Assembly: GCA_048213135.1 (NCBI GenBank)
Contig: PS015152.1
Span: 9,807-64,393 of the forward strand
Source of the DNA: Reclinomonas americana ATCC 50394
Lineage: Eukaryota
DNA: 54,587 nucleotides
Direction: 5' to 3'
The notes beneath the pieces were generated by a model. The model was not told the DNA's origin. It did no database searches and saw only the letters and a list, made by a program, of their open reading frames with translations. Of this stretch, positions 4,966-44,517 are shown piece by piece (within the stretch, counting starts at the first letter, position 1; each line of letters opens with the position of its first letter). Both the position numbers and the translations under genes were made by a program.

Positions 4966-6090
4966 TCACAAGTGCGACTCCGAATCCATGTTGCGCCGAA
5001 GAAGCACAACCTCCGCTTCCTCCACAATAAAACAGCGCATCACAATCTCCGCCAAACACCAACAACCAGGCTCATCGTCCTCGCCCTTGTCAACCACACC
5101 TGCGCATGCTCGCTGCGTCTCTTGCACGGCTCGCATTGCCGTTCGTGCTGCATCAAGCTCAAACGCAGCGAGGCCACACGGAGTGGACCAAACTCGCAAA
5201 GTGTTGTCGAAGCTACCACTGACAACATGCCGACCATCAGGTGAGACGGCAACAGAACGCACAAATTCAGTGTGTCCCTCCAACTGTAGCACCTCTCTTC
5301 CACTTGCCAGTGACCACACTCGCACAATCGGGTCCGCAGCATTGCCTCCACTCATAACGTGCTCACCGTCGGGGGTGACGGAGGCGAATAACAGGTTCTG
5401 AGTGTGTCCATCAAACCGCTGCACTTCTTCTCCTGTCGCCATTGACCACACTCTCACAGTCTTGTCTAAGCTGCAACTCACAATGTGCTGGCCATTGGGT
5501 GTAACGGCAACCGACCACAGCCAACTTCTATGCCCGTCCATCCAGCGCACTTCTGCACCATTCTCCAGTGACCACACCCGCACAGTCTTGTCATTGCTTC
5601 CGCTGACAACGTGGAGACCATCTGGCGTGACTGCGACAGACGTCACTCCCCCAGTGTGTCTCTCCAACCGTCTCACCTCCTGCCCACTCGCCAGTGACCA
5701 CACACGCACAGTTTTGTCACTGCCCCCGCTGACAACGAGCTGACCGTCGGGAGTGATGGCGACAGATTCCACTTCTCCAGTGTGGCCCTTCAACCGTCGC
5801 ACTTTTTCTCCACTCTCCAGTGACCACACACGCACGGTATGGTCATCACTGCCACTCACGATGTGCTGGCCATTGGGAGTGACAGCGACTGAGTTCACAT
5901 AGTGAGTGTGTCCTTTCAGTCGTCGTACCTCAGCTCCAGTCGCCAGTGACCACACGCGCACTGTCTTGTCCCCACTTCCAGAGATTATGTGCTGACCATC
6001 AGGAGTGATGGCGACACAAGTCACTGAGCCACTGTGCCCAGTGATGCGCTTGGAGGGGAGGAGGATGAGTGGAGAGGGAGCCAGGGACAT
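4966..6090 (-). CDS. WD40 array copy 5 (374 aa)
   Basis: Intact ORF, 7 WD repeats, tail ...NMDSESHL. Confidence 0.92.
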   Translation of the reverse strand: MSLAPSPLILLPSKRITGHSGSVTCVAITPDGQHIISGSGDKTVRVWSLATGAEVRRLKGHTHYVNSVAVTPNGQHIVSGSDDHTVRVWSLESGEKVRRLKGHTGEVESVAITPDGQLVVSGGSDKTVRVWSLASGQEVRRLERHTGGVTSVAVTPDGLHVVSGSNDKTVRVWSLENGAEVRWMDGHRSWLWSVAVTPNGQHIVSCSLDKTVRVWSMATGEEVQRFDGHTQNLLFASVTPDGEHVMSGGNAADPIVRVWSLASGREVLQLEGHTEFVRSVAVSPDGRHVVSGSFDNTLRVWSTPCGLAAFELDAARTAMRAVQETQRACAGVVDKGEDDEPGCWCLAEIVMRCFIVEEAEVVLLRRNMDSESHL

Positions 6091-6392: not shown

Positions 6393-7505
6393 TCACAAGT
6401 GCGACTCGGGTTCCATGCTGCGCCGGTGCAGTACCACCGCGGCCTCCTCCACAATGAAGCAGCGCAGCACCATCTCCGCCAGACACCGCGAATCCGATTC
6501 TTCATCTTCGTCAGCCACAGCTTCTCGCTGCATCTCCTGCACGGCCCGCATCGCTGCCCGTGCTGTATCAACCTCAAACGCAGCGAGGCCACAAGGAGTG
6601 GACCACACACGCAAGATCCTGTCATAACCACCACTCACAACATGCCGACCATCAGGTGAGACGGCAACAGAGCTCACATAGCCATCGTGTCCCTCCAGCT
6701 GCCGCACCTCTCTTCCACTTGCCAGTGACCACACTCGCACAATCGGGTCAGCAGCATTGCCTGCACTCACAACGTGCTCTCCGTCGGGGGTGACTGAAAC
6801 GTGAACCTTGTAATAAGTGTGTCCTTCAAACCGTCGCACTTCCTTGCCAGTAGTCATTGACCATACTCTCATAGTATGGTCTAAACTACAACTAACAATG
6901 TGCTGACTATCAGGTGTAATGGCAACCGACGGTACCCAATTATAGTGTCCTTTAAACCGGCGCACTTCAGCACCAGTCTCCAGCGACCACACCCGCACAG
7001 TCTTGTCATTGCTTCCGCTGACAACGTAGAGAGCATCCGGCGTGACGGCGACAGAGTTCACTCCGTCAGTGTGGCCCTCAAACCGCCTCACTTCCTGCCC
7101 CTTTGCCAGTGACCACACACGCACAGTTTTGTCACTGCCCCCGCTGACAACGTGCTCCCCGTCGGGAGTGATGGCAACAGATTGCACCCATCCAGTGTGT
7201 CCCTCCAACCGTCGCACTTCTGCTCCACTCTCCAGTGACCACACTCGCACTGTGTAGTCAGAACTCCCACTCACGATGTGCTGGCCATTGGGAGTGACGG
7301 CAACAGAGTTCACATAACCCTCATGTTCCTTCAGTCGTCGTACCTCAGCTCCAGTCGCCAGAGACCACACGCGCACTGTCCTGTCTTCACTCCCAGAGAT
7401 AATGCACTGACCGTCGGGAGTGACGGCGACGCACGCCACTGAGCGAGTGTGACCAGTGATGCGCTTGGTGAGTAGGAGGAAGATTGGAGAGGGAGCCAGG
7501 GACAT
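6393..7505 (-). CDS. WD40 array copy 6 (370 aa)
   Basis: ATG 7505; 7 WD repeats; tail ...SMEPESHL. Confidence 0.92.
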   Translation of the reverse strand: MSLAPSPIFLLLTKRITGHTRSVACVAVTPDGQCIISGSEDRTVRVWSLATGAEVRRLKEHEGYVNSVAVTPNGQHIVSGSSDYTVRVWSLESGAEVRRLEGHTGWVQSVAITPDGEHVVSGGSDKTVRVWSLAKGQEVRRFEGHTDGVNSVAVTPDALYVVSGSNDKTVRVWSLETGAEVRRFKGHYNWVPSVAITPDSQHIVSCSLDHTMRVWSMTTGKEVRRFEGHTYYKVHVSVTPDGEHVVSAGNAADPIVRVWSLASGREVRQLEGHDGYVSSVAVSPDGRHVVSGGYDRILRVWSTPCGLAAFEVDTARAAMRAVQEMQREAVADEDEESDSRCLAEMVLRCFIVEEAAVVLHRRSMEPESHL

Positions 7506-7841: not shown

Positions 7842-8960
7842 TCACAAGTGCGACTCCGAATCCATGTTGCGCCGAAGAAGCACAACCTCCGCTTCCTCCA
7901 AGATGAAACAGCGCATCACAATCTCCGCCAAACACCAACAACATGGCTCATCGTCCTCGCCCTAGTCAACCACACCTGCTCGCTGCATCTCCTGCACGGC
8001 CAGCATTGCCGTTCGCGCTGCGTAGAGCTCAAACGCAGCGAGGCCACACGGAGTGGACCACACTCGCAAAGTGTTGTCGAAGCTACCACTGACAACATGC
8101 CGACCATCGGGAGACACGGCAATAGAACGCACAAATTCAGTGTGTCCCTCCAACTGTAGCACCTCTCTTCCACTGGCCAGTGACCACACTCGCACAATCG
8201 GGTCCTCCCCGTTGCCTCCACTCATAACGTGCTTACCGCCGGGGGCGACGGAGACGTGCATCAGGTTCTCAGTGTGTCCTTCAAACCGCCGCACTTCTTC
8301 TCCTGTCGCCATTGACCACACTCTCACAGGCTCGTCTCCACTGCAACTCACAATGTGCTGACCATTGGGTGTAACGGCAACCGACCACACCCAATACGCG
8401 TGTCCCCCCACCCGTCGCACTTCAGCGCCATTCTCCAGTGACCACACGCGAACAGTCCTGTCATTGCTTCCGCAGACAACGTAGAGAGCATCCGGCGTGA
8501 CGGCGACAGAGTTCACTCCGCCAGTGTGGCCCTCAAACCGCCTCACTTCCTGCCCCCTCGCCAGTGACCACACACGTACAGTGTCATCCCTGCTCCCGCT
8601 GACAATGTGAACCCCGTCAGGAGTGATGGCCACACAATCCACTTCCTCTGTGTGTCCCTCCAACCGTCTCACTTCTTCTCCACTCTCCAGTGACCACACG
8701 CGCACTGAACGGTCAGCACTGGCACTCACAATGTGCTGGCCATTGGGAGTGACGGCGATTGCGTTCACATAATACGTGTGTCCCTCCAGTCGTCGCACCT
8801 CAACTCCAGTCGCCAAAGACCACACGCGCACTGTGGAGTCCGTACTCCCAGAGATAATGTGCGCACCATCGGGAGTGATGGCGACACATGTCACCGGGTC
8901 CGAGTGCCCCGTGATGCGCTTGGAGGGGAGGAGGATGAGTGGAGAGGGAGCGGTGGACAT
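7842..8960 (-). pseudogene. WD40 array copy 7 with premature TAG (7962-7964) upstream of the conserved tail motif
   Basis: Seven intact repeats; TAG where copy 3 has GAG (VVD*GEDDE). The downstream tail GEDDEPCCWCLAEIVMRCFILEEAEVVLLRRNMDSESHL is still in frame to TGA at 7842. Confidence 0.8.
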
Positions 8961-10290: not shown

Positions 10291-11394
10291 TCACAAGTGC
10301 GACTCCGGGTCCATGCTGCGCCGGTGCAGCACCACCGCCGCCTCCTCCACAATAAAACACCGCAGCACCATCTCTGGCAGGCACCGCGAATCGTACTCGC
10401 GGTTGACAGCTCTTCGTCGAATCCCCTGTACGGCCAGCATCGCCGCCCGCGCAGCGTGGAGCTCCCGCCGCGCGAGCCCGCTGGAAGTGGACCACACACG
10501 CACGGTCCCATCAAAGCCCGCGCTTGCCACATGCTGACCATCGGGTGACGCGGCTACACATCGCACCGATCGTTCGTGTCCATCCAACTGTCGCACCTCC
10601 TCCTCCTGTCCACTCGCCAGCGACCACACTCGGACTGTCCTGTCCGTGCTGCCACTGAGAATGTGCAGACCGTCGGGAGTGACAGCAACAGTGAGCACAT
10701 GGCTAATGTGTCCCTGCAACCGTAGCACTTCTTCGCCACTCGCAAGTGACCACACAATCGCTGTGTGGTCGTCACTGCCGGAGACAATGTGCTGCCCATC
10801 GCGGGTGACGGCAACCGATCGCACCCCACACTCGTGAGCCTCCGAACGTCGCACTTCACTGCCACTAGCCAGAGACCACACTGCCAGCGTGCCCATCGGA
10901 CTCCCAATCACCAAGTGCACCCCATCGGGAGCGACGGCAAGACAATTCACTCCATACATGAAGAACTCGCGGAGCCGCAGCACCAGCTGTCCACTCTCCA
11001 GCGACCACACTCTCACCGTCTCATCAATGCTGCCGCTCACAACGCGCTGCCCGTCGAGAGTGATGGCCACCGCATTCACCTCCCCGACGTGTCCCTTCAG
11101 TATGTGCACTTTCTTCCCACTCTCCAGTGACCACACCCGCACTCTACAGTCGAAGCTGCCGCTCACCGCAAGCGCACCATCGGGAGTGATGGCGACTGAG
11201 TTCACACAACCAGTGTGTCCCTTCAGCAGACGCACTTTCTTCCCGCTCTCCAGTGACCACACACACAAAGTCTTGTCGGCACTCCCAGAGACGATGTGAC
11301 GAGCGTCGGGAGTGATGGCGAGGCACATCACTGGGCCATCGTGCCCAGTGAGGCAGTAGGAGGGAAGGAGGAGGGGAGAGGGAGAGAGGGACAT
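10291..11394 (-). CDS. WD40 array copy 9, more divergent paralog (367 aa)
   Basis: 7 WD repeats with degenerate blade 4 (EFFMYGVNCLAV...GSPMGTLAVW); tail DSRCLPEMVLRCFIVEEAAVVLHRRSMDPESHL. Confidence 0.9.
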   Translation of the reverse strand: MSLSPSPLLLPSYCLTGHDGPVMCLAITPDARHIVSGSADKTLCVWSLESGKKVRLLKGHTGCVNSVAITPDGALAVSGSFDCRVRVWSLESGKKVHILKGHVGEVNAVAITLDGQRVVSGSIDETVRVWSLESGQLVLRLREFFMYGVNCLAVAPDGVHLVIGSPMGTLAVWSLASGSEVRRSEAHECGVRSVAVTRDGQHIVSGSDDHTAIVWSLASGEEVLRLQGHISHVLTVAVTPDGLHILSGSTDRTVRVWSLASGQEEEVRQLDGHERSVRCVAASPDGQHVASAGFDGTVRVWSTSSGLARRELHAARAAMLAVQGIRRRAVNREYDSRCLPEMVLRCFIVEEAAVVLHRRSMDPESHL

Positions 11395-11636: not shown

Positions 11637-11940
11637 TTACAAGTGCGGCTCTGGGTCCATGCTGCGCCGGTGCAGCACAAGCGCCGCTTCCTCCACAATG
11701 AAGCACCGCAACACCAATTCTGGCAGACACTGCGCATCTGATTCTTCATCGTCGTCAACAATCTCTACACGCTGCATCTCCTGCACGGCTCGCATTGCCT
11801 CGCGTGCTGCGCCCAACTCACACGCAGCGAGACCACACGGAGTGGACCACACACGCAAGATCCTGTCATAACCACCACTCACAACATGCCAACCGTCGGG
11901 AGTCACGGCAACAGCGCGCACATATCCATCGTGTCCCTCG
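11637..11940 (-). CDS. WD40 array copy 10, 3' part (blade 7 plus tail), cut by a gap
   Basis: EGHDGYVRAVAVTPDGWHVVSGGYDRILRVW...CLPELVLRCFIVEEAALVLHRRSMDPEPHL-TAA. Confidence 0.85.
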
Positions 11941-13488: not shown

Positions 13489-14610
13489 ATGTCCACTACT
13501 CCCTCTCCCCTCACTCTCCTCCCCTCCAAGCGCATCACTGGTCACAGTGGCTCAGTGACTTGTGTCGCCATCACTCCCGATGGCGCGCACATTATCTCTG
13601 GGAGTACGGACTCCACAGTGCGCGTGTGGTCACTTGAGAGTGGAGCCGAGGTACGACGACTGGAAGGGCATGTGGGCTATGTGATCTCAGTCGCTGTCAC
13701 TCCCAATGGCCAGCACATCGTGAGTGGCAGTTCTGACCATACGGTGCGAGTGTGGTCACTGGAGAGTGGAGAAGAAGTGCGACGGTTGAAGGGACACACT
13801 GGATGGGTGCTTGCTGTTGCCGTCACTCCCGACGCGGTTCACACTGTCAGCGGGAGCAAGGACTACATCGTGCGTGTGTGGTCGCTGGCGAGTGGAGAGG
13901 AGGTGAGGCGATTCGAGGGCCACACTAGGGAAGTGTGGTCTGTCGCCATCACGCCGGATGGTCTCCACGTTGTCAGCGGAAGCAATGACAAGACTGTTCG
14001 CGTGTGGTCACTGGAGAATGGCGCAGAAGTGCGACGGCTGGTGGGACACGCGTATTGGGTGTGGTCGGTTGCCATTGCACCCGATGAACAGCACGTTGTG
14101 AGTTGCAGTGGAGACGGGACTGTGAGAGTGTGGTCAATGGCGACAGGAGAAGAAGTGCGTCGGTTTCAAGGACACACACACACTGTGATTCACGTCTCCG
14201 TCACCCCCGACGGTAAACACGTTATGATTGGAGGCAACGCTGCTGACCCGATTGTGCGAGTGTGGTCACTGGCAAGCGGAAGAGAGGTGCGACAGCTGGA
14301 GTGGCACTCTGGAGGTGTGCGCTCTGTTGCCATCTCACCTGATGGTCGGCATGTTGTGAGTGGTAGTTATGACAGAACTGTACGAGTGTGGTCCACTCCG
14401 TGTGGTCTCGCTGCCTGTGAGTTGGGCGCAGCACGCGAGGCGATGCGAGCTGTGCAGGAGATGCTACGAGAAGCTGCGGTTGACGAGGGCGAGGACGACG
14501 ATGAGCTGGATTGTTGGTGTCTGGCGGAGATTGTGCTGCGGTGCTTCATCGTGGAGGAGGCGGCGCTTGTGCTGCACCGGCGCAGCGTGGACCCGGAGTC
14601 ACACTTGTGA
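13489..14610 (+). CDS. WD40 family copy 11 (373 aa)
   Basis: ATG 13489 (MSTTPSP); 7 repeats; tail CLAEIVLRCFIVEEAALVLHRRSVDPESHL. Confidence 0.92.
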   Translation: MSTTPSPLTLLPSKRITGHSGSVTCVAITPDGAHIISGSTDSTVRVWSLESGAEVRRLEGHVGYVISVAVTPNGQHIVSGSSDHTVRVWSLESGEEVRRLKGHTGWVLAVAVTPDAVHTVSGSKDYIVRVWSLASGEEVRRFEGHTREVWSVAITPDGLHVVSGSNDKTVRVWSLENGAEVRRLVGHAYWVWSVAIAPDEQHVVSCSGDGTVRVWSMATGEEVRRFQGHTHTVIHVSVTPDGKHVMIGGNAADPIVRVWSLASGREVRQLEWHSGGVRSVAISPDGRHVVSGSYDRTVRVWSTPCGLAACELGAAREAMRAVQEMLREAAVDEGEDDDELDCWCLAEIVLRCFIVEEAALVLHRRSVDPESHL

Positions 14611-24607: not shown

Positions 24608-25734
24608 ATGGCCATGAAGGTAATACATCGACTTTGCTTTGTCGCTGACGCATTGTTTTCTTAAGCAAGGCGTTCTTTTGAAGCAAGGTTCTGCGAGGCC
24701 ACACAGGTGGGGTGTATGCAGTGGCTGTGACACCCGATGGCCAACACATTGTGAGTGGCAGTGGGGACCGTACTGTACGGGTGTGGTCGCTGGCAAGTGG
24801 CGAGGAGGTGCAACGACTGACTGGCAGCTTGAACACGAGTTGGGTGTGGGCGGTGGCAGTGACACCCGATGGGCAACACATCGTGAGTGGCGGTGGGGAC
24901 CGTACTGTACGCGTATGGTCGCTGGCAAGTGGCGGCGAGGTGCGCCGACTGAAAGGCCACACGAATCAGGTGAATGCAGTGGCCGTGACACCCGATGGCC
25001 AGTGCATTGTTAGTGGCAGTGGGGACCGGACAGTACGGGTTTGGTCGCTGGCAAGTGGGGAAGAGGTGCGCCGACTGACTGGTGATTTGGTCACGGGTTG
25101 GGCGAATGCAGTGGCAGTGACACCCGATGGGCAGCACATTGTTAGTGGCAGTTATGACAATACTGTACGGGTGTGGTCGGTGGCAAGTGGCGAGGAGGTG
25201 CGCCAAATGAAAGGCCACACGGTAGGGGTGCACGCAGTGGCAGTGACACCCGATGGCCAGCACATTGTGAGTGGCAGTTGGGACAGGACTGTACGAGTGT
25301 GGTCGCTGGCCAGCGGCGTGGAGGTGCTCCGACTGGAAGGCCACGCAGCTGTGGAAGCAGTAGCAGTGACACCCGATGGCCAGCACATTGTGAGTGGCAG
25401 TAGGGACAATACTGTACGGGTGTGGTCACTGGCAAGCGGCGAGGAGGTGCGACGATTGGAAGGCCACACTGGTAGAGTGTGTGCAATGGCAGTGACACCC
25501 GATGGCCAGCACATTGTCAGTGGCAGTGAAGACAAGACTGTGCGGGTGTGGCCCACGACGCGCGGTCATGCACATGCCGAGCTGCAGGCCGCCACCGCGG
25601 CCCACCACGCCATACTCGAGAGCCAGCCAGCGAGTGATGCTGTCGGCGACCAGCGATGTCTCGTGGAGATTGTGCTGCGGTGCTTCATCAGCGAGGATGC
25701 GAGAGTCGTGCTCTTCCGTTCCCCAATCTTTTGA
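24608..25734 (+). CDS. WD40 family relative with highly homogenised repeats; likely micro-exon 24608-24619 (MAMK) plus exon 24688-25734
   Basis: An in-frame TGA at 24679 requires splicing (GTAATA...AAG intron 24620-24687); seven near-identical AVAVTPDGQHIVSGSxDxTVRVWSLASG repeats; tail CLVEIVLRCFISEDARVVLFR. Confidence 0.85.
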
Positions 25735-33400: not shown

Positions 33401-34492
33401 ATGTCCCTCGCTCCCTCTCCTCCCATCCTCCTCCCCTCCAAGCGCATCACCGGTCACACGGGCCCGGTGACGTGTGTCGCCATCACTCCCAATGGTCAGC
33501 GCATCATCTCTGGGAGTGCAGACAAGACAGTGCGCGTGTGGTCACTTGAGAGTGGAGAGGAGATGCGACGACTGGAGGGACACACTAAAGGAGTGAACGC
33601 TGTTGCCGTCACTCCCAATGGCCAGCACATCGTGAGTGGCAGCTTCGACCGGACGCTGCGTGTGTGGTCACTGGAGAGTGGAGGAAAAGTGCGACGGTTG
33701 AAGGGGCACGCTGAGGTAGTGGAATCTGTTACCATCACTCCCGACGGGGAGCTCGTTGTGAGTGGCAGCGTCGATGACACCGTGCGTGTGTGGTCACTGG
33801 CGAGTGGAGAGGAGGTACAACGAATCGAGGAGCACACTGGGGGAGTGAACTCTGTCGCCGTCACGCCAGATGGTCAGCATGTTGTTAGTGGCAGCTGGGA
33901 CAAGACTGTTCGCGTGTGGTCACTGGAGAATGGCGCCGAAGTGCGCCGGCTGGAGGGTCACAAAGGTGGGGTGCTTTCTGCTGCTGTTACACCCGATGGT
34001 CAGCACGTTGTGAGTTGCAGTCACGACGGGACCGTGAGAGTGTGGTCAACGGCGACAGGAGAAGAAGTGCGTCGGTTTGAAGGACACACTTACACTATGA
34101 TTCACGTCTCCGTCACCCCCGACGGTGAGCACGTCGTAAGTGGAGGCAACTTTGCTGACCCGATTGTGCGAGTGTGGTCATTGGCCAGTGGAAGAGAGGT
34201 GCGACAGCTGGAGGGGCACACTGGAGGTGTGCGCTCTGTTGCCATCTCACCTGATGGTCAACATGTCGTGAGTGGTAGTTATGACAATACTTTGCGAGTG
34301 TGGTCCACTCAGTGTGGCCTCGCTGCGCTTGAGCTCTACACAGCGCGGGCGGCGATGCGGGCTGTGCAGGAGGTGCTGCGAGAAGAAGCGGATTCGCGGT
34401 GTCTGCCAGAGATGGTGCTGCGGTGCTTCATTGTGGAGGAGGCGGCGGTGGTGCTGCATCGGCGCAGGATTGATCCCGAGTCGCACTTGTGA
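33401..34492 (+). CDS. WD40 second array copy A (363 aa)
   Basis: 7 repeats; short linker; tail DSRCLPEMVLRCFIVEEAAVVLHRRRIDPESHL. Confidence 0.92.
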   Translation: MSLAPSPPILLPSKRITGHTGPVTCVAITPNGQRIISGSADKTVRVWSLESGEEMRRLEGHTKGVNAVAVTPNGQHIVSGSFDRTLRVWSLESGGKVRRLKGHAEVVESVTITPDGELVVSGSVDDTVRVWSLASGEEVQRIEEHTGGVNSVAVTPDGQHVVSGSWDKTVRVWSLENGAEVRRLEGHKGGVLSAAVTPDGQHVVSCSHDGTVRVWSTATGEEVRRFEGHTYTMIHVSVTPDGEHVVSGGNFADPIVRVWSLASGREVRQLEGHTGGVRSVAISPDGQHVVSGSYDNTLRVWSTQCGLAALELYTARAAMRAVQEVLREEADSRCLPEMVLRCFIVEEAAVVLHRRRIDPESHL

Positions 34493-34769: not shown

Positions 34770-35882
34770 ATGTCCTCCGCTCCCTCTCCACTCATCCTCG
34801 TCCCCTCCAAGCGCACCACCGGTCACACGGGCGCTGTGATGTGCGTCGCCATCACTCCCGATGGTCAGCACGTCGTCAGTGGGGGTTCTGATCATTCAGT
34901 GCGTGTGTGCTCTTTGGCAACTGAAGCTGAGGTGCGACGACTGGAGGGACACACTGGTTGTGTGAACTCAGTCGTCGTCACTCCCGATGGACAACACATC
35001 GTAAGTGGCAGTGCTGACCGTACAGTGCGCGTGTGGTCACTGGAGAGTGGAGCAGAAGTGAGACGGCTGGAGGGACACACTGGATGGGTGCAATCTGTTG
35101 CCATCACTCCCGACGGGGAGCTCGTTGTCAGCGGGAGCAGGGACAACACCGTGCGTGTGTGGTCACTGGCGAGTGGGCAGGAGGTGCGACGAATGGAGGA
35201 GCACACCAGGGAAGTGAACTCTGTTGCCATCACGCCGGATGGTCTCTACGTCGTCAGCGGAAGCCATGACAAGACTGTGCGGGTGTGGTCACTGGAGACT
35301 GGCGCTGAAGTGCGACGGCTGAAAGGACACGAAGGTTGGGTGCTGTCGGTTGCCATTACACCCGATAGTCAGCACATTGTGAGTTGCAGTTATGACGGGA
35401 CCATGAGAGTGTGGTCAATGACGACTGGCAAGGAAGTACGACAATTTGATGGACACAGACATAGCAAGATTCACGTCTCCGTCACACCGGACGGTGAGCA
35501 CGTAATAAGTGGAGGTAATTTGTATGATCCGGTTGTGCGAGTGTGGTCACTGGCAAGTGGAAGAGAGGTGCTACAGCTTGAGGGACACACTGGAGGTGTG
35601 CGCGCTGTGGCCGTGACTCCCGATGGTTTGCATGTTGTGAGTGGTAGTTATGACACGACTTTGCGAGTGTGGTCCACTCCCTGCGGCCTCGCTGCGTTTG
35701 AGGTTGATACAGCACGAGCGGCGATGCGGGCTGTGCAGGAGATGCTGCGAGAATCAGTTGTTGACGAAGATGAAGAAGCGGATTCGCGGTGTTTGCCAGA
35801 GATGGTGCTGCGGTGCTTCATTGTGGAGGAGGCGGCGGTTGTACTGCACCGGCACAGCATGGATCCAGAGTCGCACTTGTGA
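34770..35882 (+). CDS. WD40 second array copy B (370 aa)
   Basis: ATG 34770 (MSSAPSP); 7 repeats; conserved tail. Confidence 0.92.
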   Translation: MSSAPSPLILVPSKRTTGHTGAVMCVAITPDGQHVVSGGSDHSVRVCSLATEAEVRRLEGHTGCVNSVVVTPDGQHIVSGSADRTVRVWSLESGAEVRRLEGHTGWVQSVAITPDGELVVSGSRDNTVRVWSLASGQEVRRMEEHTREVNSVAITPDGLYVVSGSHDKTVRVWSLETGAEVRRLKGHEGWVLSVAITPDSQHIVSCSYDGTMRVWSMTTGKEVRQFDGHRHSKIHVSVTPDGEHVISGGNLYDPVVRVWSLASGREVLQLEGHTGGVRAVAVTPDGLHVVSGSYDTTLRVWSTPCGLAAFEVDTARAAMRAVQEMLRESVVDEDEEADSRCLPEMVLRCFIVEEAAVVLHRHSMDPESHL

Positions 35883-36852: not shown

Positions 36853-37959
36853 ATGTCCACCACTCCCTCTCCCCTCACTCTCCTCCCCTCCAAGCGCATC
36901 ACGGGTCACAGTTTTCTTGTGATGTGCGTCGCCATCACTCCCAATGGTGAGCACATCATCTCTGGGAGTACAGACAAGACTGTGCGAGTGTGGTCCCTGG
37001 CCACTGGAGCTGAGGTGCGACGACTGGAGGGACACGCGCTTCAAGTGCACTCTGTCGCCGTGACTCCCAATGGCCAGCACATCGTGAGTGGTAGCTTCGA
37101 CCGGACGCTGCGAGTGTGGTCGCTGGAGAGTGGAGAAGGCGTGCGTCTGTTGAAGGGGCACGCTGAGGTAGTGCAATGTGTTGCCATCACTCCCGATGGG
37201 GAGCACGTTGTCAGCGGGAGTTGGGATGCGACAGTGCGTGTGTGGTCGCTGGCGTCGGGGCAGGAGGTACGACGAATGGAGGAGCACACCAGGGAAGTGA
37301 ACTCTGTCGCCATCACGCCGGATGGTCTCTACGTCGTCAGCGGAAGCCATGACAAGACAGTGCGGGTGTGGTCACTGGAGACTGGCGCTGAAGTGCGACG
37401 GCTGAAAGGACACGAAGGTTGGGTGCTGTCGGTTGCCATTACACCCGATAGTCAGCACATTGTGAGTTGCAGTTATGACGGGACCATGAGAGTGTGGTCA
37501 ATGACGGCTGGCAAGGAAGTACGACAATTTGATGGACACAGACATAGCAAGATTCACGTCTCCGTCACACCGGACGGTGAGCACGTAATAAGTGGAGGTA
37601 ATTTGTATGATCCGGTTGTGCGAGTGTGGTCACTGGCAAGTGGAAGAGAGGTGCTACAGCTTGAGGGACACACTGGAGGTGTGCGCGCTGTGGCCGTGAC
37701 TCCCGATGGTTTGCATGTTGTGAGTGGTAGTTATGACACGACTTTGCGAGTGTGGTCCACTCCCTGCGGCCTCGCTGCGTTTGAGGTTGATACAGCACGA
37801 GCGGCGATGCGGGCTGTGCAGGAGATGCAGCGAGGAGCTGTCGTGGATGAAGAAGCAGATTCACGGTGCCTGCCAGAGATGGTGCTGCGGTGCTTCATTG
37901 TGGAGGAAGCGACGGCTGTGCTGTACCGGCGCAGCATTGATCCCGAGTCGCACTTGTGA
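36853..37959 (+). CDS. WD40 second array copy C (368 aa)
   Basis: ATG 36853 (MSTTPSP); 7 repeats; conserved tail. Confidence 0.92.
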   Translation: MSTTPSPLTLLPSKRITGHSFLVMCVAITPNGEHIISGSTDKTVRVWSLATGAEVRRLEGHALQVHSVAVTPNGQHIVSGSFDRTLRVWSLESGEGVRLLKGHAEVVQCVAITPDGEHVVSGSWDATVRVWSLASGQEVRRMEEHTREVNSVAITPDGLYVVSGSHDKTVRVWSLETGAEVRRLKGHEGWVLSVAITPDSQHIVSCSYDGTMRVWSMTAGKEVRQFDGHRHSKIHVSVTPDGEHVISGGNLYDPVVRVWSLASGREVLQLEGHTGGVRAVAVTPDGLHVVSGSYDTTLRVWSTPCGLAAFEVDTARAAMRAVQEMQRGAVVDEEADSRCLPEMVLRCFIVEEATAVLYRRSIDPESHL

Positions 37960-38186: not shown

Positions 38187-38240
<54 letters not shown>

Positions 38241-38328: not shown

Positions 38329-39444
38329 ATGTCCCTCGCTCCCTCTCCACTCATCCTCCTCCCCTCCAAGCGCATCACTGGTCACACGGGTCCCGTGCCT
38401 TGCGTCGCCATCACTCCCAATGGTGAGCACATTGTATCTGGGAGTACGGACTACACAGTGCGAGTGTGGTCTCTGGCGACTGGAGCTGAGGTACGACGAC
38501 TGAAGGGACATGAGGGTTATGTGTTATCTGTTGCCGTCGCTCCCAATGGCCAGCACATCGTGAGTGCCAGTGCTGACCGTACGGTGCGAGTGTGGTCACT
38601 TGAGAGTGGAGCAGAAGTGAGACGGTTGGAGGGGCACACTGATGTAGTGGAATCTGTTGCCATCACTCCCGACGGGGATCACATAATAAGCGGGAGTTGG
38701 GATGCGACAGTGCGTGTGTGGTCACTGGCGAGGGGGCAGGAGTTGAGGCGATTCGGGGGCCACACCAGTGAAGTGAACACTGTCGCCGTCACGCCAGATG
38801 GTCTCTACGTTGTCAGCGGAAGCAATGACAGGACTGTTCGCGTGTGGTCACTGGAGAATGGCGCAGAAGTGCGACGGCTGAAGGGACACAAAGGCTGGGT
38901 GCTGTCGGTTGCCATTGCACCCGATGGTCGGCACATTGTGAGTTGCTGTACCAGTTCTGTGCGAGTGTGGTCAATGACGTCTGGCAAGGAAGTGCAACGG
39001 TTTGAAGGACACACTCGTGACAAGATGCACGTCTCCGTCACCCCCGACGGTAAGCACGTTATGAGTGGAGGCAACGGATGTGACCCAATTGTGCGAGTGT
39101 GGTCACTGGCAAGTGGAAGAGAGCTGCAACAGTTGAAGGGACACGATGGATACGTGGGCTCTGTTGCCGTGACTCGCGATGGTCGGCATGTTGTGAGTGG
39201 TAGTTATGACAGGACTTTGCGAGTGTGGTCCACTCCTTGTGGCCTCGCTGCGTGTGAGGTTGATACAGCGCGGGCGGCGATGCGGGCCGTGCAGGAGATG
39301 CAGCGAGCAGGTGTGGTTGACGAGGGCGAGGACGATGAGCCAGGTTGTTGGTGTTTGGCGGAGATTGTGATGCGCTGTTTTATTGTGGAGGAAGCGGCGG
39401 TGGTACTGCACCGGCGCACCATGGAACCCGAGTCGCACTTGTGA
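38329..39444 (+). CDS. WD40 second array copy D (371 aa)
   Basis: ATG 38329 (MSLAPSP); 7 repeats; tail CLAEIVMRCFIVEEAAVVLHRRTMEPESHL. Confidence 0.92.
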   Translation: MSLAPSPLILLPSKRITGHTGPVPCVAITPNGEHIVSGSTDYTVRVWSLATGAEVRRLKGHEGYVLSVAVAPNGQHIVSASADRTVRVWSLESGAEVRRLEGHTDVVESVAITPDGDHIISGSWDATVRVWSLARGQELRRFGGHTSEVNTVAVTPDGLYVVSGSNDRTVRVWSLENGAEVRRLKGHKGWVLSVAIAPDGRHIVSCCTSSVRVWSMTSGKEVQRFEGHTRDKMHVSVTPDGKHVMSGGNGCDPIVRVWSLASGRELQQLKGHDGYVGSVAVTRDGRHVVSGSYDRTLRVWSTPCGLAACEVDTARAAMRAVQEMQRAGVVDEGEDDEPGCWCLAEIVMRCFIVEEAAVVLHRRTMEPESHL

Positions 39445-39921: not shown

Positions 39922-40464
39922 ATGGCCGACGGAGATGAGACGGAGGAGGAGAGATATGCATGTCGCCAACTCGCCCTCTTTGACAATGGAGTGTGGGAGA
40001 TTGCTGCGTCGCCAGCAGTGCGCGGGAAAATGCAGGTAAGCAAAAGAGAGAGGAGAGAGAGAGCGGAGAAACGAGAAGTTGTGTGACAGTGAGAGTGATC
40101 TCTTGCTCTGCTGGCACGTGTGCGTGTGCGAGGGAGCATGTGTGAGAGAGTGAGACACACAGAGAGCAATGCAGCGAGTGTCAGAGGGTGTGAGCAGAAA
40201 GAATGACACAGTCGCTCTCTCTCTCTTATTCTCACTCTCTTCTTCTCTCCTTTTTGCTCCTGCTCTCTCACTCTCATTCGCTATCCTTCTCTCTCTCTCC
40301 CTCTCTCTTTCCTTCTTCCCTGCTCTTCCCTGCTCTCTAACTCTCTCGTTTGGCTGATACCACAGTGTACGAAACCGAACTCACTGCCTTCACTCTCCTC
40401 TCACTCTCCTCTCTGTTTCACTCACTCACACTCACTTGCTCTCTTTCTACCTCTCCCCGCCTTG

Positions 40465-40495
<31 letters not shown>

Positions 40496-42545
40496 GCCGA
40501 TACCACAGTGCACGAAACCGAACTCACAATCACCCTGGGCCTTCACTCTCTGCTCTCTCTCCTCTCTCTTTCACACAGTTACACTCACTCACTCTCTCTC
40601 TCTCACACACACACACACCTTCATCCTCTCTCTCCTGCCCGCTCACTCCAACACCACTGTGCGTGAAACCGAACTCAGTATCGTTCTGACCTGTCTCTGT
40701 CCCTTCATCTCCTCTCTCACACTAGTGCACACGCACACTCTCACTCGCCCTCCTTCTACGTCTCTCTCCTACTTGCTCTCTCTGACACCGCACTGCGGAA
40801 ACCGAACTCGGCGCTCGCCCGCCTTCCAACACTTATTTTCTCTCTTTTCTCACTCAACACCTCTCACTCACTTGCCCACTTCGTCTCCTTCTTTCCCTGC
40901 CAGCTCACTCCGACACCACAGTGCGTGAATCTCCGTCCCTCACTTCCTTCCTCCCTCCCTTCCTCCCTCCCCATCGCTTTCTCCTACCTTCCGTTCTCCC
41001 ACTTTTTCTCTCATTTGGTGAATATCAGAGTTCTTGGTGTGCGAATTCATTCTCTCCTCCCTCCTTCGTACGCCAGTCTACCGTTCCCCCTCTCCCTTCC
41101 TCCCTTCCTCTCTTTCTCCACACTTGCCCTCCTCATCCACTTCTTCAATCTCTCGCGCTCTCTTCTCCAAGATCTCCCCCACCTTCTTCCCCCCTTACCC
41201 ATCCCTTGCCCTTCCTCCCCCTTCCCCCCTTCCCCATCCCTTCCCCCCTCCACCCAGTTCATCGCCTCCGCCGGCATCCACCCCCACGTCACCCTCCTCC
41301 ACTCCCCCTCCGGCACCCCCGTCGCCACCCTCCGCGGCCACCTCCTCGAAGTCACCGCACTCGCCTTCTCTCCCGCTTCCTCGTCCCCCACTGTGCTGCT
41401 GGCCACTGCCGACGGGGGCTGGGATCTTCCGTACTACGCAGTGCACGTGTGGGATCTCACCACGCACAGTCGTCGCTGGTGCGCGCAAGGCCACACGGAT
41501 AACATCAACGCGCTGGCGTTTGTGTGCAACGGAGAGCGCCTGGTCAGCTGCGCCGACGACCACACCGTGCGTGTGTGGGCCGTGGACAGTGGGCGCTGTC
41601 TGGGCGTGTTGACCGGGCACACCAGGTCCGTGTATGCGTTGACGGTGTGTGCGGACGATGATCGGTGGGTGGTCAGTGGCGGCGGTGATTGTGCCTTGCG
41701 CTGGTGGCGCTGCGATGGTGCTGACGTGGGGGTGGCGGGTGGCGAAGAGCGGCAAGGGAGTGCGTTGACGGATGCGTGTGTGTCGTCGCTGACGAGCAGT
41801 CGTCCTCGTCGGTTGTTGGCGTCGGGACACAAGGACGGTGCGGTGCGCTTGTGGCGCGGGCGGGAAATGGTTCGCGAGTTTCGCGGGCACGAGAATTGGG
41901 TGAACAGTGTGGCGTTTGATGATGGGAGCGGGAGGTTTCTTGTGAGCTCGTCGACGGGTGAGTGGAGGAGGGGGGAAGGAGGAGCAGGGGGAGGGGAAGG
42001 GGAGGGGAAGGAGGGAGAAGAATGAGAAGTGTGGTGAAAGTTTGTGTCTTGCACGCAGCAGGTTTGCTGCAGCTGTCTTTGTCAGGTAATGTGCCGTCAG
42101 TTGCTTGACCCGTATGGTGTCCATTGTTTTCCCTGCGTTGCTTGCTTGGTTTCGTTCTCCTCTATTTGTTTCTTCCCTCTGTCTGTCACTTTCTCTTCGC
42201 TGTCTTTCTGTCTCTATCTCTCTCTCTGTCTCGACTTCTCTCTTGTCCCTTCCGAGGCCAAGCTTACTCTGCCTCCACCACTGTTTCTCGCTCGGCTCGC
42301 TCTCTCGCTCTTTCGCCTTCCCCCTTGCTCCTTCTCTGCGGTGGAGGCCAAGCTCTATCTGCTTCCATCACTGTTTCTCGCTCCGCTCCCACTCACTCTC
42401 CCCACTCTCTGCATAAAGCAACTTGTCCTTTCTCTGCGTTTATCCTAACATTTCTATCTTTCTTCTCTTCTCGCTCCCATTCTTTTTCTGCCTGTCAAGT
42501 TGGCTATCTGGTGCCTGATCCCCTCTCGTCCTGTTGGTTTTGGTT

Positions 42546-42616
<71 letters not shown>

Positions 42617-43167
42617 NNNNNNNNNNNNNNNNNNNNNNNNNNNNNNNNNNNNNNNNNNNNNNNNNNNNNNNNNNNNNNNNNNNNNNNNNNNNNNNNNNNN
42701 NNNNNNNNNNNNNNNNNNNNNNNNNNNNNNNNNNNNNNNNNNNNNNNNNNNNNNNNNNNNNNNNNNNNNNNNNNNNNNNNNNNNNNNNNNNNNNNNNNNN
42801 NNNNNNNNNNNNNNNNNNNNNNNNNNNNNNNNNNNNNNNNNNNNNNNNNNNNNNNNNNNNNNNNNNNNNNNNNNNNNNNNNNNNNNNNNNNNNNNNNNNN
42901 NNNNNNNNNNNNNNNNNNNNNNNNNNNNNNNNNNNNNNNNNNNNNNNNNNNNNNNNNNNNNNNNNNNNNNNNNNNNNNNNNNNNNNNNNNNNNNNNNNNN
43001 NNNNNNNNNNNNNNNNNNNNNNNNNNNNNNNNNNNNNNNNNNNNNNNNNNNNNNNNNNNNNNNNNNNNNNNNNNNNNNNNNNNNNNNNNNNNNNNNNNNN
43101 NNNNNNNNNNNNNNNNNNNNNNNNNNNNNNNNNNNNNNNNNNNNNNNNNNNNNNNNNNNNNNNNGTT

Positions 43168-43201
<34 letters not shown>

Positions 43202-44517
43202 TCTGTCTCTCTCAGTCTCTTCTTCTCCCATGGCCTTTCTCTGCGGTGGAGGCCAAGCTTTCTCTTCCTCCACCACTGTTTCTCGCTCCGCTCTCTCTCT
43301 CTCTCTCTCTCTCGCTCTCTCGCCTTCCTCCTTGCTCCTTCTCTGTGGTGGAGGCCAAGCTTTCTGCTTCCGTCACTGTTTCTCGTTCCGCTTTCTCTCT
43401 CTCGCCTTCCCTCTTGCTACTACTCTGCGGTGGAGGCCAAGCTCTCTCTGCTCCCGCCGCTGTTTCTCGCTCCTCCCTCTCTCTCTCTCGCTCTCTGCAT
43501 GAAGCAGTTTGTCCTTCCTCCGTGTTTATTCTCCTTGTTTCTCTCTTTCTTCTCTTCTCGCTCTCACTCTGTTTTTTCCTTGTTCTCTGTGTCAATTCAG
43601 CAATCAGTGATCTTTTCTCATCTTACTGGTTTTGGTTCAATCTCTCTCTGCTTTTTCTCCCAATCTGTCTCTCCCTCCCTCTTGCTCGCTGCATTAAACA
43701 GTCCGTCCTTTCGTCCCTTGCTTTCACTGTGCCAGTCATCTTGTTCTATTCAATCAGCAGGTTACAGTTGCTTCCGTCTCCTTTATTTCTCACATGTTCA
43801 TTTCTGCAAGTCTTTGCCACCCTTCCCCCGCATACACTCACGCACTGTATCACAGTCTCGCCGCTCTTCTCTCATCTTCCCTCTCCTTCTCTTCCCCTCC
43901 CTCCCCCCACCTTCTCCTTCCCCCTCACTCCCTCTTCCCCTATTCCTCCCTCCCCTCACTTCCCGTTGCCTTCTCCTTCGCAGACCGAACTGTCCGCGTA
44001 TGGCACCTCTCCACAACACACTGCATGGCCGTACTGCGCGCGCACACCGACGAAGTCACCTCTGCCTTGTTCCTCTGCGACGGTTCCATTGCGACCGGCA
44101 GTCTCGACCGCACGATTCGGTGTTTCCCCAACGGTATGCAATTTCACGCCATCTTTTTCCCTATCTCTGCTTCCATCCAACAGTGCCATGCGGTGCACAG
44201 GCCCATGGTCACCGCTGTGGTTCCTCGATGCAGAGATGGAAGCGCTGTCGGTCGTTGTGGCCTGTTTGAAAGAACTGTCGGCCGGTGAAGAAGCAGCGCT
44301 ACCCCTGCAGGTGCTGCGATGTTTCGTGCTTGAGGATGCGCGAGTCTCGGCACACCACTGTCGTGTCGAGAAGACGCAGCGGGATCTTGATTTCCCACCA
44401 GTGCCAGTAGGGGCTGAGGTGGTGACGGTGGGCGAAGATGTTGGCGACGAACTGGGGGGTGCGGAAGGCTGCGAAGTGGAAATGGTGGCGGTGCAGGAGC
44501 AGGTTGCGTTGCGGTGA
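39922..44517 (+). CDS. Divergent intron-containing WD40 protein with the same C-terminal motif (exons 39922-40035, 41258-41957, 43984-44133, 44201-44517; 3' end uncertain)
   Basis: GHLLEV, GHTDNI...DDHTVRVW, GHTRSV, GHENWV...STDRTVRVW, AHTDEV...SLDRTIR; tail AEMEALSVVVACLKE...ALPLQVLRCFVLEDARV. Confidence 0.8.
40359..40935 (+). repeat. Intronic periodic motif ACCACAGTGYRYGAAACCGAACTC, 5 copies spaced about 125-150 bp
   Basis: Copies near 40359, 40502, 40653, 40787 and 40914 (degenerate), separated by CT/CA-rich spacers. Confidence 0.75.
42254..43645 (+). repeat. Intronic repeat of about 85-100 bp (CTCTGCGGTGGAGGCCAAGCT...CTGTTTCTCGCTC), at least 5 copies spanning a gap
   Basis: Copies near 42254, 42334, 43239, 43341 and 43423; 42334-42550 also resembles 43423-43645. 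Confidence 0.75.

What the first reader, a model, noticed from the sequence alone, without database searches (positions are those of the whole stretch)
44201..44360. Unannotated C-terminal module shared by three very different WD40 classes (possible C-terminal F-box-like adaptor)
Seen: the same two-part tail follows the last blade in the array genes (ELxAARxAMRAVQE-acidic linker-CL[P/A]E[M/I]V[L/M]RCFIVEEAxVVL), the 24.6 kb gene (AELQAATAAHHAILE...CLVEIVLRCFISEDARV) and the divergent spliced gene (AEMEALSVVVACLKE...ALPLQVLRCFVLEDARV). The linker varies in length while RCF[I/V]xE[E/D]A is invariant, even though the propellers differ greatly. Inference: a constant docking module. LPxxVLxxF[I/V] resembles F-box helix 1 (LPxEILxxIF), and poxvirus ANK-PRANC proteins are a precedent for repeat domain plus C-terminal F-box. 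That would make the family variable substrate receptors of a cullin-RING ligase. The Pro is not invariant, so the match is weak.
Basis: partly seen in the sequence, partly recalled or inferred. Interest (0 to 1): 0.82.

Follow-up and report, generated by a model that had tools for sequence, protein, structure and literature searches.

The report
Orphan helical tail on WD40 propellers
A family of ring-shaped WD40 proteins in an unidentified protist all end in the same short two-helix tail, which matches no known domain, shows no detectable likeness to an F-box, and probably serves to attach the proteins to a partner or to each other.

Summary
The window has 15 copies of the tail (RCF..E.A core): 13 in the tandem array, one of them a pseudogene, plus one in the gene at 24.6 kb and one in the spliced gene at 44201-44514. 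The core is under purifying selection (dN/dS 0.16 against 0.38 for the propeller). It also ends two public proteins whose propellers are only 21-26% identical to the array's.

The F-box reading found no support. Neither Pfam nor a PDB sequence profile gave a significant or relevant match. The recalled F-box helix-1 pattern and the published BC-box pattern each fit 0 of 17 tails, and Pro follows the invariant Leu in 8 of 17. AlphaFold2 predicts a long antiparallel two-helix hairpin with only generic structural matches. Binding to Skp1 or Elongin C could not be tested.

My best reading (0.55) is an orphan, lineage-restricted hairpin that acts as a constant intermolecular docking or assembly module. 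Its second helix is hydrophobic on all sides.

The scan has already noted this family and its orphan tail on other pieces of the same genome.

The parts
44201..44514 (+). Last exon of the divergent spliced WD40 gene. It encodes ..PWSPLWFLDAEMEALSVVVACLKE-linker-ALPLQVLRCFVLEDARV plus 52 further residues before the stop at 44515-44517.
   Evidence: Sequence and frame. Leave-one-out profile E 1.5e-4. The exon start at 44201 is inferred from the AG at 44199-44200 and the reading frame, without RNA support.
41270..44135 (+). WD40 exons of the same spliced gene. One runs from about 41270 to 41959 and ends at a GTGAGT donor. The other is 43985-44135, followed by a GTATGC donor. A CT-rich intron with an N-run lies between them.
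   Evidence: tblastn against the array protein gives 28-33% identity. Pfam WD40 E 2e-28. Translation and sequence. The splice sites are inferred.
24688..25731 (+). Second exon of the gene at 24.6 kb, with seven WD40 repeats and a tail at 25564-25731. An inferred mini-exon at 24608-24619 encodes MAMK.
   Evidence: Pfam WD40 E 3.4e-84. Array-only tail profile E 7.8e-13. Exon 1 and the acceptor are read and are inferred.
721..915 (-). Tail of the array gene at 721-1830.
2088..2294 (-). Tail of the array gene at 2088-3200.
3502..3705 (-). Tail of the array gene at 3502-4620. This protein and its tail were the ones folded.
4969..5175 (-). Tail of the array gene at 4969-6090.
6396..6590 (-). Tail of the array gene at 6396-7505.
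7845..8063 (-). Tail of a pseudogene copy, with an in-frame stop in the acidic linker. Its propeller ORF is 7965-9074.
10294..10479 (-). Tail of the more divergent array gene at 10294-11394.
11640..11834 (-). Tail of a copy that consists only of the last blade and the tail, next to a 20-N gap. It ends in PHL.
14404..14607 (+). Tail of the array gene at 13489-14607.
34316..34489 (+). Tail of the array gene at 33401-34489. It has the shortest linker in the array.
35685..35879 (+). Tail of the array gene at 34770-35879.
37768..37956 (+). Tail of the array gene at 36853-37956.
39241..39441 (+). Tail of the array gene at 38329-39441.

Best explanation
The tail is an orphan, lineage-restricted C-terminal domain of about 60-70 residues.

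**Build.** An amphipathic helix (ELxxARxAMxAVQE) is followed by a loop of variable length. In the array genes the loop is acidic. A second helix carries the invariant core L-x3-[VI]-x-RCF-x2-E. The two helices fold back on each other as a long antiparallel hairpin that hangs off blade 7 of an already closed seven-blade propeller.

**Proposed mechanism.** The second helix is hydrophobic all round, so a two-helix hairpin cannot bury it. I propose that the hairpin is completed by another molecule. The propeller's variable top face would pick the ligand. The constant hairpin would plug every family member into the same assembly, either a common partner protein or a bundle with the hairpin of another family member.

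**Shown and inferred.** Shown here: the conservation, the purifying selection, the restricted distribution, and the absence of detectable similarity to known domains. Predicted: the hairpin fold. Inferred: intermolecular docking and the partner's identity.
For: **Conservation and selection**
- There are 15 copies in the window, always directly after the last blade.
- In 55 pairs of array genes, dN/dS is 0.16 for the C-terminal part and 0.31 for helix 1, against 0.38 for the propeller. dS is similar across the three (0.53, 0.48 and 0.49), so the low dN is not explained by recent homogenisation.
- No column of the two helices (0 of 53) has entropy of 1.8 or more, against 26 of 299 propeller columns. 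Those 26 cluster after GH and in SGSxDxT.
- Relatives with propellers only 25.6% (P0003) and 21-23% (P0005) identical keep the tail at 39% and the core at 50%.

**Structure**
- The full-length model has seven blades at pLDDT above 90. The ring is closed by the N-terminal strand 11-16, so the tail is not needed for closure. The tail forms helices 304-332 and 343-365.
- The tail alone, with a more diverse alignment, gives pLDDT 83.4 and pTM 0.67, with helices 2-27 and 36-62.
- Helix 1 is amphipathic (hydrophobic moment 1.02). Helix 2 is not (moment 0.39, mean hydropathy +0.91) and has hydrophobic residues at nearly all angles.

**Expression of the same C-terminus**
- An EST-derived ORF of Reclinomonas americana (P0002) ends at the same relative position. 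This shows that such a tail is transcribed as the C-terminus of a related protein.
Against:
- In the full-length model the second helix has pLDDT of only 30-49. The hairpin is confident only when the tail is folded alone.
- The alignments are shallow: 12 rows, mostly paralogues.
- Between the array and the 24.6-kb gene the tail as a whole (dN 0.52) has diverged more than the propeller (dN 0.29). 'Constant' therefore applies to the core, not to the whole tail.
- A hydrophobic helix could equally be buried against its own propeller. The low-confidence model cannot exclude that.
- The acidic character of the loop is not kept in distant relatives. P0003's loop is basic.
Confidence: 0.55

Rival explanations
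1. The tail would be a truncated, C-terminal F-box-like (PRANC-like) motif that binds Skp1, making the family variable substrate receptors of an SCF ligase.
For: - 8 of 17 tails have LP followed by a hydrophobic helix, LPEMVLRCF.
- The position is C-terminal to a repeat domain, as in poxviral ANK/PRANC proteins.
- Poxviral F-boxes with two helices, or even one, still bind Skp1, and most contacts come from helix 1 and the loop before it (PMC4353913, passages of section 6).
- Recalled background, from no call: expanded, diversifying receptor families with a constant adaptor box are typical of cullin-RING ligases.
Against: - No F-box, F-box-like or PRANC profile matches any of 12 tails at E up to 10.
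- The PDB sequence profile gives nothing better than E 0.077, and that hit is a designed filament.
- The recalled pattern LPxE[ILV][ILVM]xx[ILV][FLIV] fits 0 of 17 tails. The residue after the invariant Leu is Ala in 7, Pro in 8 and Val in 2 of 17.
- The predicted helix 2 is one continuous helix of 27 residues paired with a 26-residue helix, which is not a cluster of short helices.
- None of the matches listed by Foldseek or VIA-align is an F-box protein. This absence is weak evidence.
Confidence: 0.07
2. The core helix would be a new docking helix for another cullin-RING adaptor. It would be BC-box-like for Elongin C (as in WSB1, which is WD40 plus a SOCS box) or H-box-like for DDB1.
For: - The invariant stripe L-x3-[VI]-x3-F is present in 17 of 17 tails. 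It has the i, i+4, i+8 spacing of the published BC box (S,T,P)LXXX(C,S,A)XXXPhi (PMC3355856, passages).
- WD40 followed by a C-terminal SOCS box is a known build, WSB1 (same passages).
- Recalled: single hydrophobic helices are how BC boxes and DDB1 H-boxes dock.
Against: - The BC-box consensus fits 0 of 17 tails, and the Cul5 box LP-Phi-P fits 0 of 17.
- The Cul2-box pattern fits 8 of 17, but only on the core itself, with no BC box upstream.
- No SOCS-box profile match.
- The repeats read VRVWSL, so they lack the WDxR motif. The motif is recalled; the sequence is.
Confidence: 0.1
3. The hairpin would pack on its own propeller, at the bottom or side, as a stabilising cap, or on the top face as an autoinhibitory plug. 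It would have no external partner.
For: - Helix 2 is hydrophobic all round and must be buried somewhere.
- The tail has been found only after beta-propellers, never on another domain and never alone, apart from the EST fragment.
- The tail and the propeller diverge together between classes.
- Recalled: coronin's C-terminal extension packs on its propeller.
Against: - The model closes the ring with the N-terminal strand and places the tail helices without confidence (pLDDT 30-70), so it finds no docking site.
- In distant relatives the core is better conserved than the propeller. That is unexpected if it only had to fit a co-evolving surface of its own protein.
- The invariant R and E in the core suggest specific polar contacts.
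Confidence: 0.2
4. The tail would be a targeting signal. The array proteins end in -SHL, which could be a peroxisomal PTS1, or helix 2 could be a membrane anchor.
For: - 11 of 12 array tails in alignment A1 end in SHL. This fits the recalled minimal PTS1 tripeptide [SAC][KRH][LM].
- WD40 proteins with a predicted PTS1 (Gcp1-3) are reported in jakobids and other protists (PMC8134430, passages).
- A hand calculation, from no call, gives the best 19-residue stretch of helix 2 a mean hydropathy of about 1.56.
Against: - The tripeptide is not kept outside the array. One array copy ends in PHL and the others end in PIF, ALR, MYL, DLR and LWW.
- Acidic residues precede it (DPESHL).
- The conserved part is the core helix, not the end.
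- Helix 2 carries invariant R and E plus other charges, which is unlike a membrane span.
- Gcp1-3 are Pex7-like, and no relative of the tail was found in the organisms that carry them.
Confidence: 0.03

Closest known systems
EST-derived ORF of Reclinomonas americana (EukProt record, protein P0002, 116 aa)
   Same: It has the same last WD40 blade and the same tail, GLARQEL..CLPEMVLRCFIVEEAAVVMHR.., ending at the same relative position. Array-only profile E 1.1e-27.
   Different: It is only a fragment. It ends in -MYL, not -SHL. The WD40 part is about 70-73% identical to the window's copies. No function is described for it.
Poxvirus ankyrin-repeat proteins with a C-terminal PRANC / truncated F-box
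   Same: A repeat-domain binder is followed by a short, constant C-terminal helical motif, in an expanded gene family. A shortened F-box is enough to bind Skp1 (PMC4353913, passages).
   Different: There is no profile match. Pro is not conserved, at 8 of 17. The predicted fold is a long two-helix hairpin. The repeat domain is WD40 rather than ankyrin. Skp1 binding is untested.
WSB1-type proteins (WD40 repeats plus a C-terminal SOCS box with a BC box and a Cul5 box)
   Same: WD40 repeats are followed by a C-terminal helical docking motif. The hydrophobic stripe has the same i, i+4, i+8 spacing (PMC3355856, passages).
   Different: The BC-box and Cul5-box consensus patterns each fit 0 of 17 tails. 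There is no SOCS-box profile match.
Short coronins (propeller, variable unique region, C-terminal coiled coil)
   Same: The order of parts is the same: a seven-blade WD40-type propeller, a linker of variable length, then a C-terminal helical self-association element. The coronin domain order is from the abstract of PMC3203266 in the search listing. Trimerisation is recalled.
   Different: There is no sequence similarity. Here the prediction is a helix-loop-helix hairpin, not a single coiled-coil helix, and self-association is untested.
Highly repetitive WD40 propellers (PDB 5yzv from Thermomonospora, 2ymu, designed WRAP-T) and, recalled, the WD40 domains of fungal HNWD/NWD receptors
   Same: The propeller matches 5yzv at Foldseek E 3e-32, 38-39% identity, rmsd 1.1-1.5 over about 291 columns. 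Variation is concentrated at a few positions per blade.
   Different: None of these alignments covers the tail: about 291-313 of 373 residues align. The proteins here are stand-alone, with no NACHT or other N-terminal domain.

Membership tests
F-box / F-box-like / PRANC (Pfam profiles) | Significant match to the family profile | tested here: not met
   hmmscan of 12 of 12 tails, and of the 95-residue tail of the spliced gene, at E up to 10. No F-box, F-box-like or PRANC row appears. The only rows, for 1 of 12 members, are Ephrin_CRD, DUF4761 and ACOX at E 0.09-0.2. HMMER's filters drop most matches above about E 0.1.
F-box / F-box-like / PRANC (Pfam profiles) | Conserved Leu-Pro before helix 1 and the LPxE[IL][IL]xx[IV][FL]-type helix-1 pattern (pattern recalled from memory) | tested here: not met
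   The pattern fits 0 of 17 tails. LP is present in 8 of 17. The residue after the invariant Leu is A in 7, P in 8 and V in 2.
F-box / F-box-like / PRANC (Pfam profiles) | Fold of three short helices, or two in poxviruses (PMC4353913) | tested here: inconclusive
   The AF2 model of the tail has two long helices, 2-27 and 36-62, at pLDDT 83.4. Foldseek gives 0 matches at E 0.001 or better. The VIA-align best Z of 8.4 is to generic hairpins. The model rests on 12 sequences.
F-box / F-box-like / PRANC (Pfam profiles) | Binds Skp1 | not testable with these tools
No genome is held for the window, so no Skp1 of this organism could be obtained.
SOCS box / VHL box | BC box (S,T,P)LXXX(C,S,A)XXXPhi followed by a Cul5 box (LP-Phi-P) or a Cul2 box 8-23 residues downstream (PMC3355856) | tested here: not met
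   The BC box fits 0 of 17 and the Cul5 box 0 of 17. The Cul2 pattern fits 8 of 17, but on the core itself with no BC box before it. No SOCS-box profile match.
SOCS box / VHL box | Binds Elongin B/C | not testable with these tools
WD40 seven-blade propeller (the domain that precedes the tail) | Seven WD40 repeats folding into a closed propeller | tested here: met
   Pfam WD40 E 1.5e-72 with 7 stretches. The AF2 model has 28 strands at pLDDT above 90, closed by the N-terminal strand. Foldseek to 5yzv gives E 3e-32.
Coronin-type C-terminal coiled coil | Profile match and homo-oligomerising coiled coil | tested here: inconclusive
   There is no Pfam match of any kind to the tail. The predicted helical hairpin resembles designed homo-oligomeric hairpins and ROP only at generic Z of 7-8. 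The oligomeric state was not testable.
PTS1 peroxisomal targeting signal | C-terminal tripeptide of the [SAC][KRH][LM] type (recalled), conserved across the family | tested here: inconclusive
   SHL is present in 11 of 12 array tails of A1. It is absent from the 24.6-kb gene, the spliced gene, P0002, P0003 and P0005. No PTS1 predictor was available.

The most novel reading that the evidence does not exclude
The RCF hairpin is a new kind of receptor 'box', unrelated in sequence to the F-box, SOCS box or H-box. It would plug a large, diversifying repertoire of stand-alone WD40 binders of a jakobid-like protist into one shared effector, most attractively a cullin-RING ligase adaptor. That would give this lineage its own family of variable substrate receptors.
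Probability: 0.12. Interest if true: 0.8.

Novelty: new variant of a known kind. Interest (0 to 1): 0.4.

Why it matters
If the hairpin is a shared docking or assembly module, it is the handle by which the function of this expanded WD40 repertoire can be found. Earlier notes of the scan record arrays on other pieces of this genome. Used as bait, the tail should recover the common partner, whatever the individual propellers bind.

It would also be an independent case of the design 'variable repeat-domain binder plus constant terminal box', known from F-box, SOCS-box and PRANC proteins, in a deep-branching protist lineage. As it stands it is an orphan domain of unknown partner, seen in one lineage and two unnamed public contigs.

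Tried and rejected
- **RNA support.** The look-up of sequencing runs on 36800-42600 listed no run.
- **Complex prediction.** Complex prediction, tried with two copies of the tail, was not available. Self-association and adaptor binding remain untested.
- **Whole genome.** None is held, so the proteome could not be searched for the tail on other domains.
- **ESM Atlas on the tail.** No usable hit.
- **Word-index search with one tail**. No hit.
- **Word-index search with the tail alignment among longer proteins**. It returned only P0003 and P0005, which were already in the alignment.
- **Metagenome contigs**. Of 165 pattern matches, 2 loci passed tblastn. Both carry TRCFIVEEAAALL inside a Gly/Glu-rich frame that overlaps a 460-residue ORF of ordinary composition on the other strand, with no propeller before it. 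I treat both as chance.
- **Viral contigs**. 12 pattern matches, none confirmed.
- **P0004.** This 800-residue fish hypothetical protein scored E 2.6e-6. It matches through seven copies of a repeat (..EALPTFVLNIFVVTRA..), each weak on its own (E 0.7 to 90). It has no propeller. I treat it as spurious.
- **Structure-library absences.** None of the rows listed by Foldseek or VIA-align for the tail model is an F-box or SOCS-box entry. That is an absence only.
- **Structural closure of the propeller by the tail.** Rejected, because the model closes blade 7 with the N-terminal strand 11-16.
- **Zinc binding by the Cys residues.** Rejected. Only the Cys of RCF is invariant. The CWC form is found in some array copies only.
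- **Membrane span.** Rejected because of the invariant Arg and Glu within helix 2.
- **Literature.** Searches for Reclinomonas with WD40, highly repetitive WD40 and jakobid nuclear genomes turned up no description of this tail. Nor did the passages returned by term look-ups in PMC7050145 ('WD40' occurs 0 times) and PMC5587647. These are the only searches behind that statement. Supplements were not read.
Full report
**What is in the sequence.**
- The window is eukaryotic. It has introns with GT..AG ends, CT-rich tracts and 2349 N in assembly gaps. No whole genome is held for it.
- A six-frame regex for RCF..E.A finds 15 sites, each a few dozen residues after the last 'VRVW' of a WD40 reading frame.
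- Thirteen belong to a tandem array of stop-to-stop ORFs of about 370-470 residues. These lie on the minus strand from 721 to 11852 and on the plus strand at 13489-14607 and 33401-39441. One is a pseudogene with a stop in the linker (7845-8063). One is a last-blade-plus-tail fragment next to a 20-N gap (11640-12014).
- The fourteenth ends the gene at 24.6 kb (25564-25731). The fifteenth is the finding itself (44215-44514).
- A profile built from the tails recovers exactly these, at E 1e-20 to 3e-36 among 1151 six-frame pieces. The next best piece scores E 0.58.

**Is the copy at the finding's coordinates real?**
- It is the weakest member. A profile of the array tails alone scores it E 0.016 (10.4 bits), while the same profile scores the 24.6-kb gene's tail at E 7.8e-13.
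- A profile of all relatives except itself scores it E 1.5e-4, aligned over ALSVVVACLKE...LPLQVLRCFVLEDARV.
- It lies about 70 nt downstream of the gene's last WD40 exon (43985-44135), on the same strand but in another frame.
- A nearer AG at 44182-44183 would give a tail-less product. Which acceptor is used is inferred from conservation alone, because no RNA run could be listed.
- After EDARV the frame runs on for 52 more residues to a stop at 44515-44517.

**The three classes.**
- Array proteins are 74-79% identical to each other, and the divergent copy at 10294 is 60% identical to the first.
- The 24.6-kb gene is 61% identical to the array in the propeller and 45% in the tail. It is a fairly close paralogue.
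- The spliced gene is 28-30% identical in the propeller (41% over its short second WD40 exon) and 28% in the tail.
- All have seven WD40 repeats or WD40 exons by Pfam.
- 'Three very different classes' is therefore true of one gene, not of two.

**Selection.**
- Nei-Gojobori estimates over 55 pairs of array genes:

| Part | dN/dS | dS |
|---|---|---|
| Propeller | 0.38 | 0.49 |
| Tail helix 1 | 0.31 | 0.48 |
| Linker | 0.33 | 0.97 |
| C-terminal part, CL..SHL | 0.16 | 0.53 |

- dS of the two helical parts is close to the propeller's, so their low dN reflects constraint and not recent gene conversion.
- Among the 11 full-length array genes, 26 of 299 propeller columns have entropy of 1.8 bits or more. 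These sit after GH and in SGSxDxT. By recall, these are the top-face contact positions of WD40 propellers. None of the 53 columns of the two tail helices reaches that value.
- Against this, between the array and the 24.6-kb gene the tail has diverged more (dN 0.52) than the propeller (dN 0.29). The constant element is the core L-x3-[VI]-x-RCF-x2-E-x-A, not the whole tail.

**Distribution.**
- An exhaustive HMMER search of 1.84 billion representative proteins with the tail profile gave 4 proteins at E 0.001 or better.
  - P0002 (E 1.3e-20) is a 116-residue EST-derived ORF of Reclinomonas americana in EukProt. It has the last blade and a tail ending at the same relative position.
  - P0003 (394 aa) and P0005 (381 aa) come from unnamed assembled contigs. 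Both are beta-propeller proteins by precomputed Pfam domains, and both end in the tail.
  - P0004 is a fish hypothetical protein. It matches through seven copies of a weak repeat, and I treat it as spurious.
- The propellers of P0003 and P0005 are 25.6% and 21-23% identical to the array's. Their tails are 39% identical, and 50% over the 26-residue core. In distant members, then, the core outlasts the propeller.
- A word-index search among longer proteins added nothing.
- Viral contigs gave nothing. The two metagenome loci are chance matches on the antisense strand of another ORF.
- The tail was seen only after propellers, and only in this narrow set of sequences.

**Tests of the F-box and related readings.**
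- Pfam hmmscan at E up to 10 on the tails (12 of 12 in A3, plus the 95-residue tail of the spliced gene) gives no F-box, F-box-like, PRANC or SOCS-box row.
- A profile search of all PDB chain sequences gives two rows, at E 0.077 and 1.2. Both align to helix 1 only and neither is relevant.
- The recalled F-box helix-1 pattern fits 0 of 17 tails. The residue after the invariant Leu is Ala in 7, Pro in 8 and Val in 2.
- The published BC-box consensus and the Cul5 box (PMC3355856, passages) each fit 0 of 17. The Cul2-box pattern fits 8 of 17, but only because LPEMVLRCF happens to fit it, with no BC box upstream.
- What the core does share with a BC box is the i, i+4, i+8 hydrophobic stripe: L, V/I, F in 17 of 17.
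- Length alone does not exclude an F-box. Poxviral F-boxes of two helices, or one, still bind Skp1 (PMC4353913, passages of section 6).
- Nothing in the window's other genes points to ubiquitin ligases. They are EF-hand, NAD synthase, RCC1, ankyrin and Methyltransf_16. In a eukaryote this says little.

**Structure.**
- AlphaFold2 on a full-length array protein with 12 paralogues gives a seven-blade propeller at pLDDT above 90. Its last blade is completed by the N-terminal strand 11-16. Then come helix 304-332 (pLDDT 63-70), a loop, and helix 343-365 (pLDDT 30-49). The tail is therefore outside the closed ring and is not its velcro.
- The propeller's nearest solved relatives are highly repetitive WD40 domains (5yzv, E 3e-32, 38-39% identity). 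These alignments stop before the tail.
- Folded alone with the more diverse alignment A3, the tail gives pLDDT 83.4 and pTM 0.67, with helices 2-27 and 36-62 at pLDDT about 91-93.
- Foldseek finds no PDB match at E 0.001 or better. The best rows are the hairpins of MexA/AcrA.
- VIA-align's best Z is 8.4. The top rows are generic antiparallel hairpins, among them designed homo-oligomeric hairpins and ROP. That is within the range the tool itself calls a common arrangement for helical models.
- Helix 1 is amphipathic (hydrophobic moment 1.02). Helix 2 has a low moment (0.39) and mean hydropathy of +0.91, with hydrophobic residues at almost every angle.

**Mechanism.**
- A two-helix hairpin cannot bury a helix that is hydrophobic all round, so something else must cover it.
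- Three possibilities remain: a partner protein, the hairpin of another family member (a four-helix bundle), or the protein's own propeller.
- I favour an intermolecular role (0.55) for three reasons. The core is invariant across propellers that share only a fifth to a quarter of their residues. It includes invariant charged residues (R, E). The model finds no docking site on the propeller.
- Within that reading, a common adaptor and self-assembly cannot be told apart with what could be run.
- Intramolecular packing keeps 0.2. A cullin-RING adaptor other than Skp1 keeps 0.1, a true F-box-like motif 0.07, and a targeting signal 0.03.

**Comparison and novelty.**
- It works like the known design 'variable repeat-domain binder plus constant terminal box', as in F-box-WD40, WSB1 and poxviral ANK-PRANC proteins. 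It also resembles coronin's order of propeller, linker and coiled coil. It passes no membership test for any of these families.
- No search found it described: and the passages read.
- Earlier notes of this scan had already recorded the same family and its orphan, helical tail on other pieces of this genome, and had named the Reclinomonas EST as nearest relative.
- New here: the tail's presence on much more divergent propellers, the selection figures for its parts, the hairpin model, the all-round hydrophobic second helix, and the explicit negative tests for the F-box, PRANC and SOCS box.

**Limits.**
- There are no RNA data, no genome, no complex prediction and no profile-profile search against domain libraries.
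- The alignments are shallow.
- The splice models of the 24.6-kb gene and the spliced gene are inferred.
- Supplements of the cited papers were not read.

Noticed in passing
window 721-39441 (last codons of the array genes): 11 of 12 array tails in alignment A1 end in -SHL and one in -PHL. SHL fits the recalled minimal PTS1 tripeptide. PMC8134430 reports Pex7-like WD40 proteins (Gcp1-3) with a predicted PTS1 in jakobids and other protists. The tripeptide is absent from the 24.6-kb gene, the spliced gene, P0002, P0003 and P0005, and acidic residues precede it.
   Followed up: partly
window, array tails (for example 3502-3705, 6396-6590, 10294-10479, 39241-39441): The array tails come in two core forms, ..PGCWCLAEIV[LM]RCF.. 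and ..DSRCLPEMVLRCF... They also have two end forms, ..LLRR..DSESHL and ..LHRRS.DPESHL. These occur in mixed combinations (6396 has SRCLAEMV; 3502, 14404 and 39241 combine CWC with HRR..DP). That looks like recombination or gene conversion among array members.
   Followed up: no
window 7845-9074 (-), 9248-10213 (-), 11640-12014 (-), 11702-13021 (+): Several array copies are damaged or incomplete. One has an in-frame stop in the linker. One is truncated after four repeats (..GHNN then stop). One is a last-blade-plus-tail fragment on the minus strand, abutting a 20-N gap, with a plus-strand copy starting just after the gap; this could be a scaffold join. That plus-strand copy then loses its own end in another 20-N gap (12826-12845).
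   Followed up: partly
window 44136-44200: The intron before the tail exon has two candidate acceptors. The AG at 44182-44183 follows the pyrimidine tract directly and would give a short, tail-less product. The AG at 44199-44200 gives the conserved tail.
   Followed up: partly
window 24608-24687: The 24.6-kb gene seems to start with a four-codon exon (ATG GCC ATG AAG, donor GTAATA), followed by a 68-nt intron ending in AG at 24686-24687. The protein would then begin MAMK|VLRGH. This is inferred from the sequence only.
   Followed up: no
window 15392-15718 (+), 17221-17511 (-), 20836-22778 (-), 25878-27185 (-), 29924-30568 (+): The neighbouring genes by Pfam are EF-hand, NAD synthase, RCC1 repeats, ankyrin repeats and a Methyltransf_16 lysine methyltransferase. 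None carries the tail, and none is a ubiquitin-ligase component.
   Followed up: partly
L001 855-914; L002 1285-1344: Two metagenome contigs share an identical stretch that reads ..TRCFIVEEAAALL.. in a Gly/Glu-rich frame, antisense to a 460-residue ORF. This is a chance look-alike of the core motif.
   Followed up: yes
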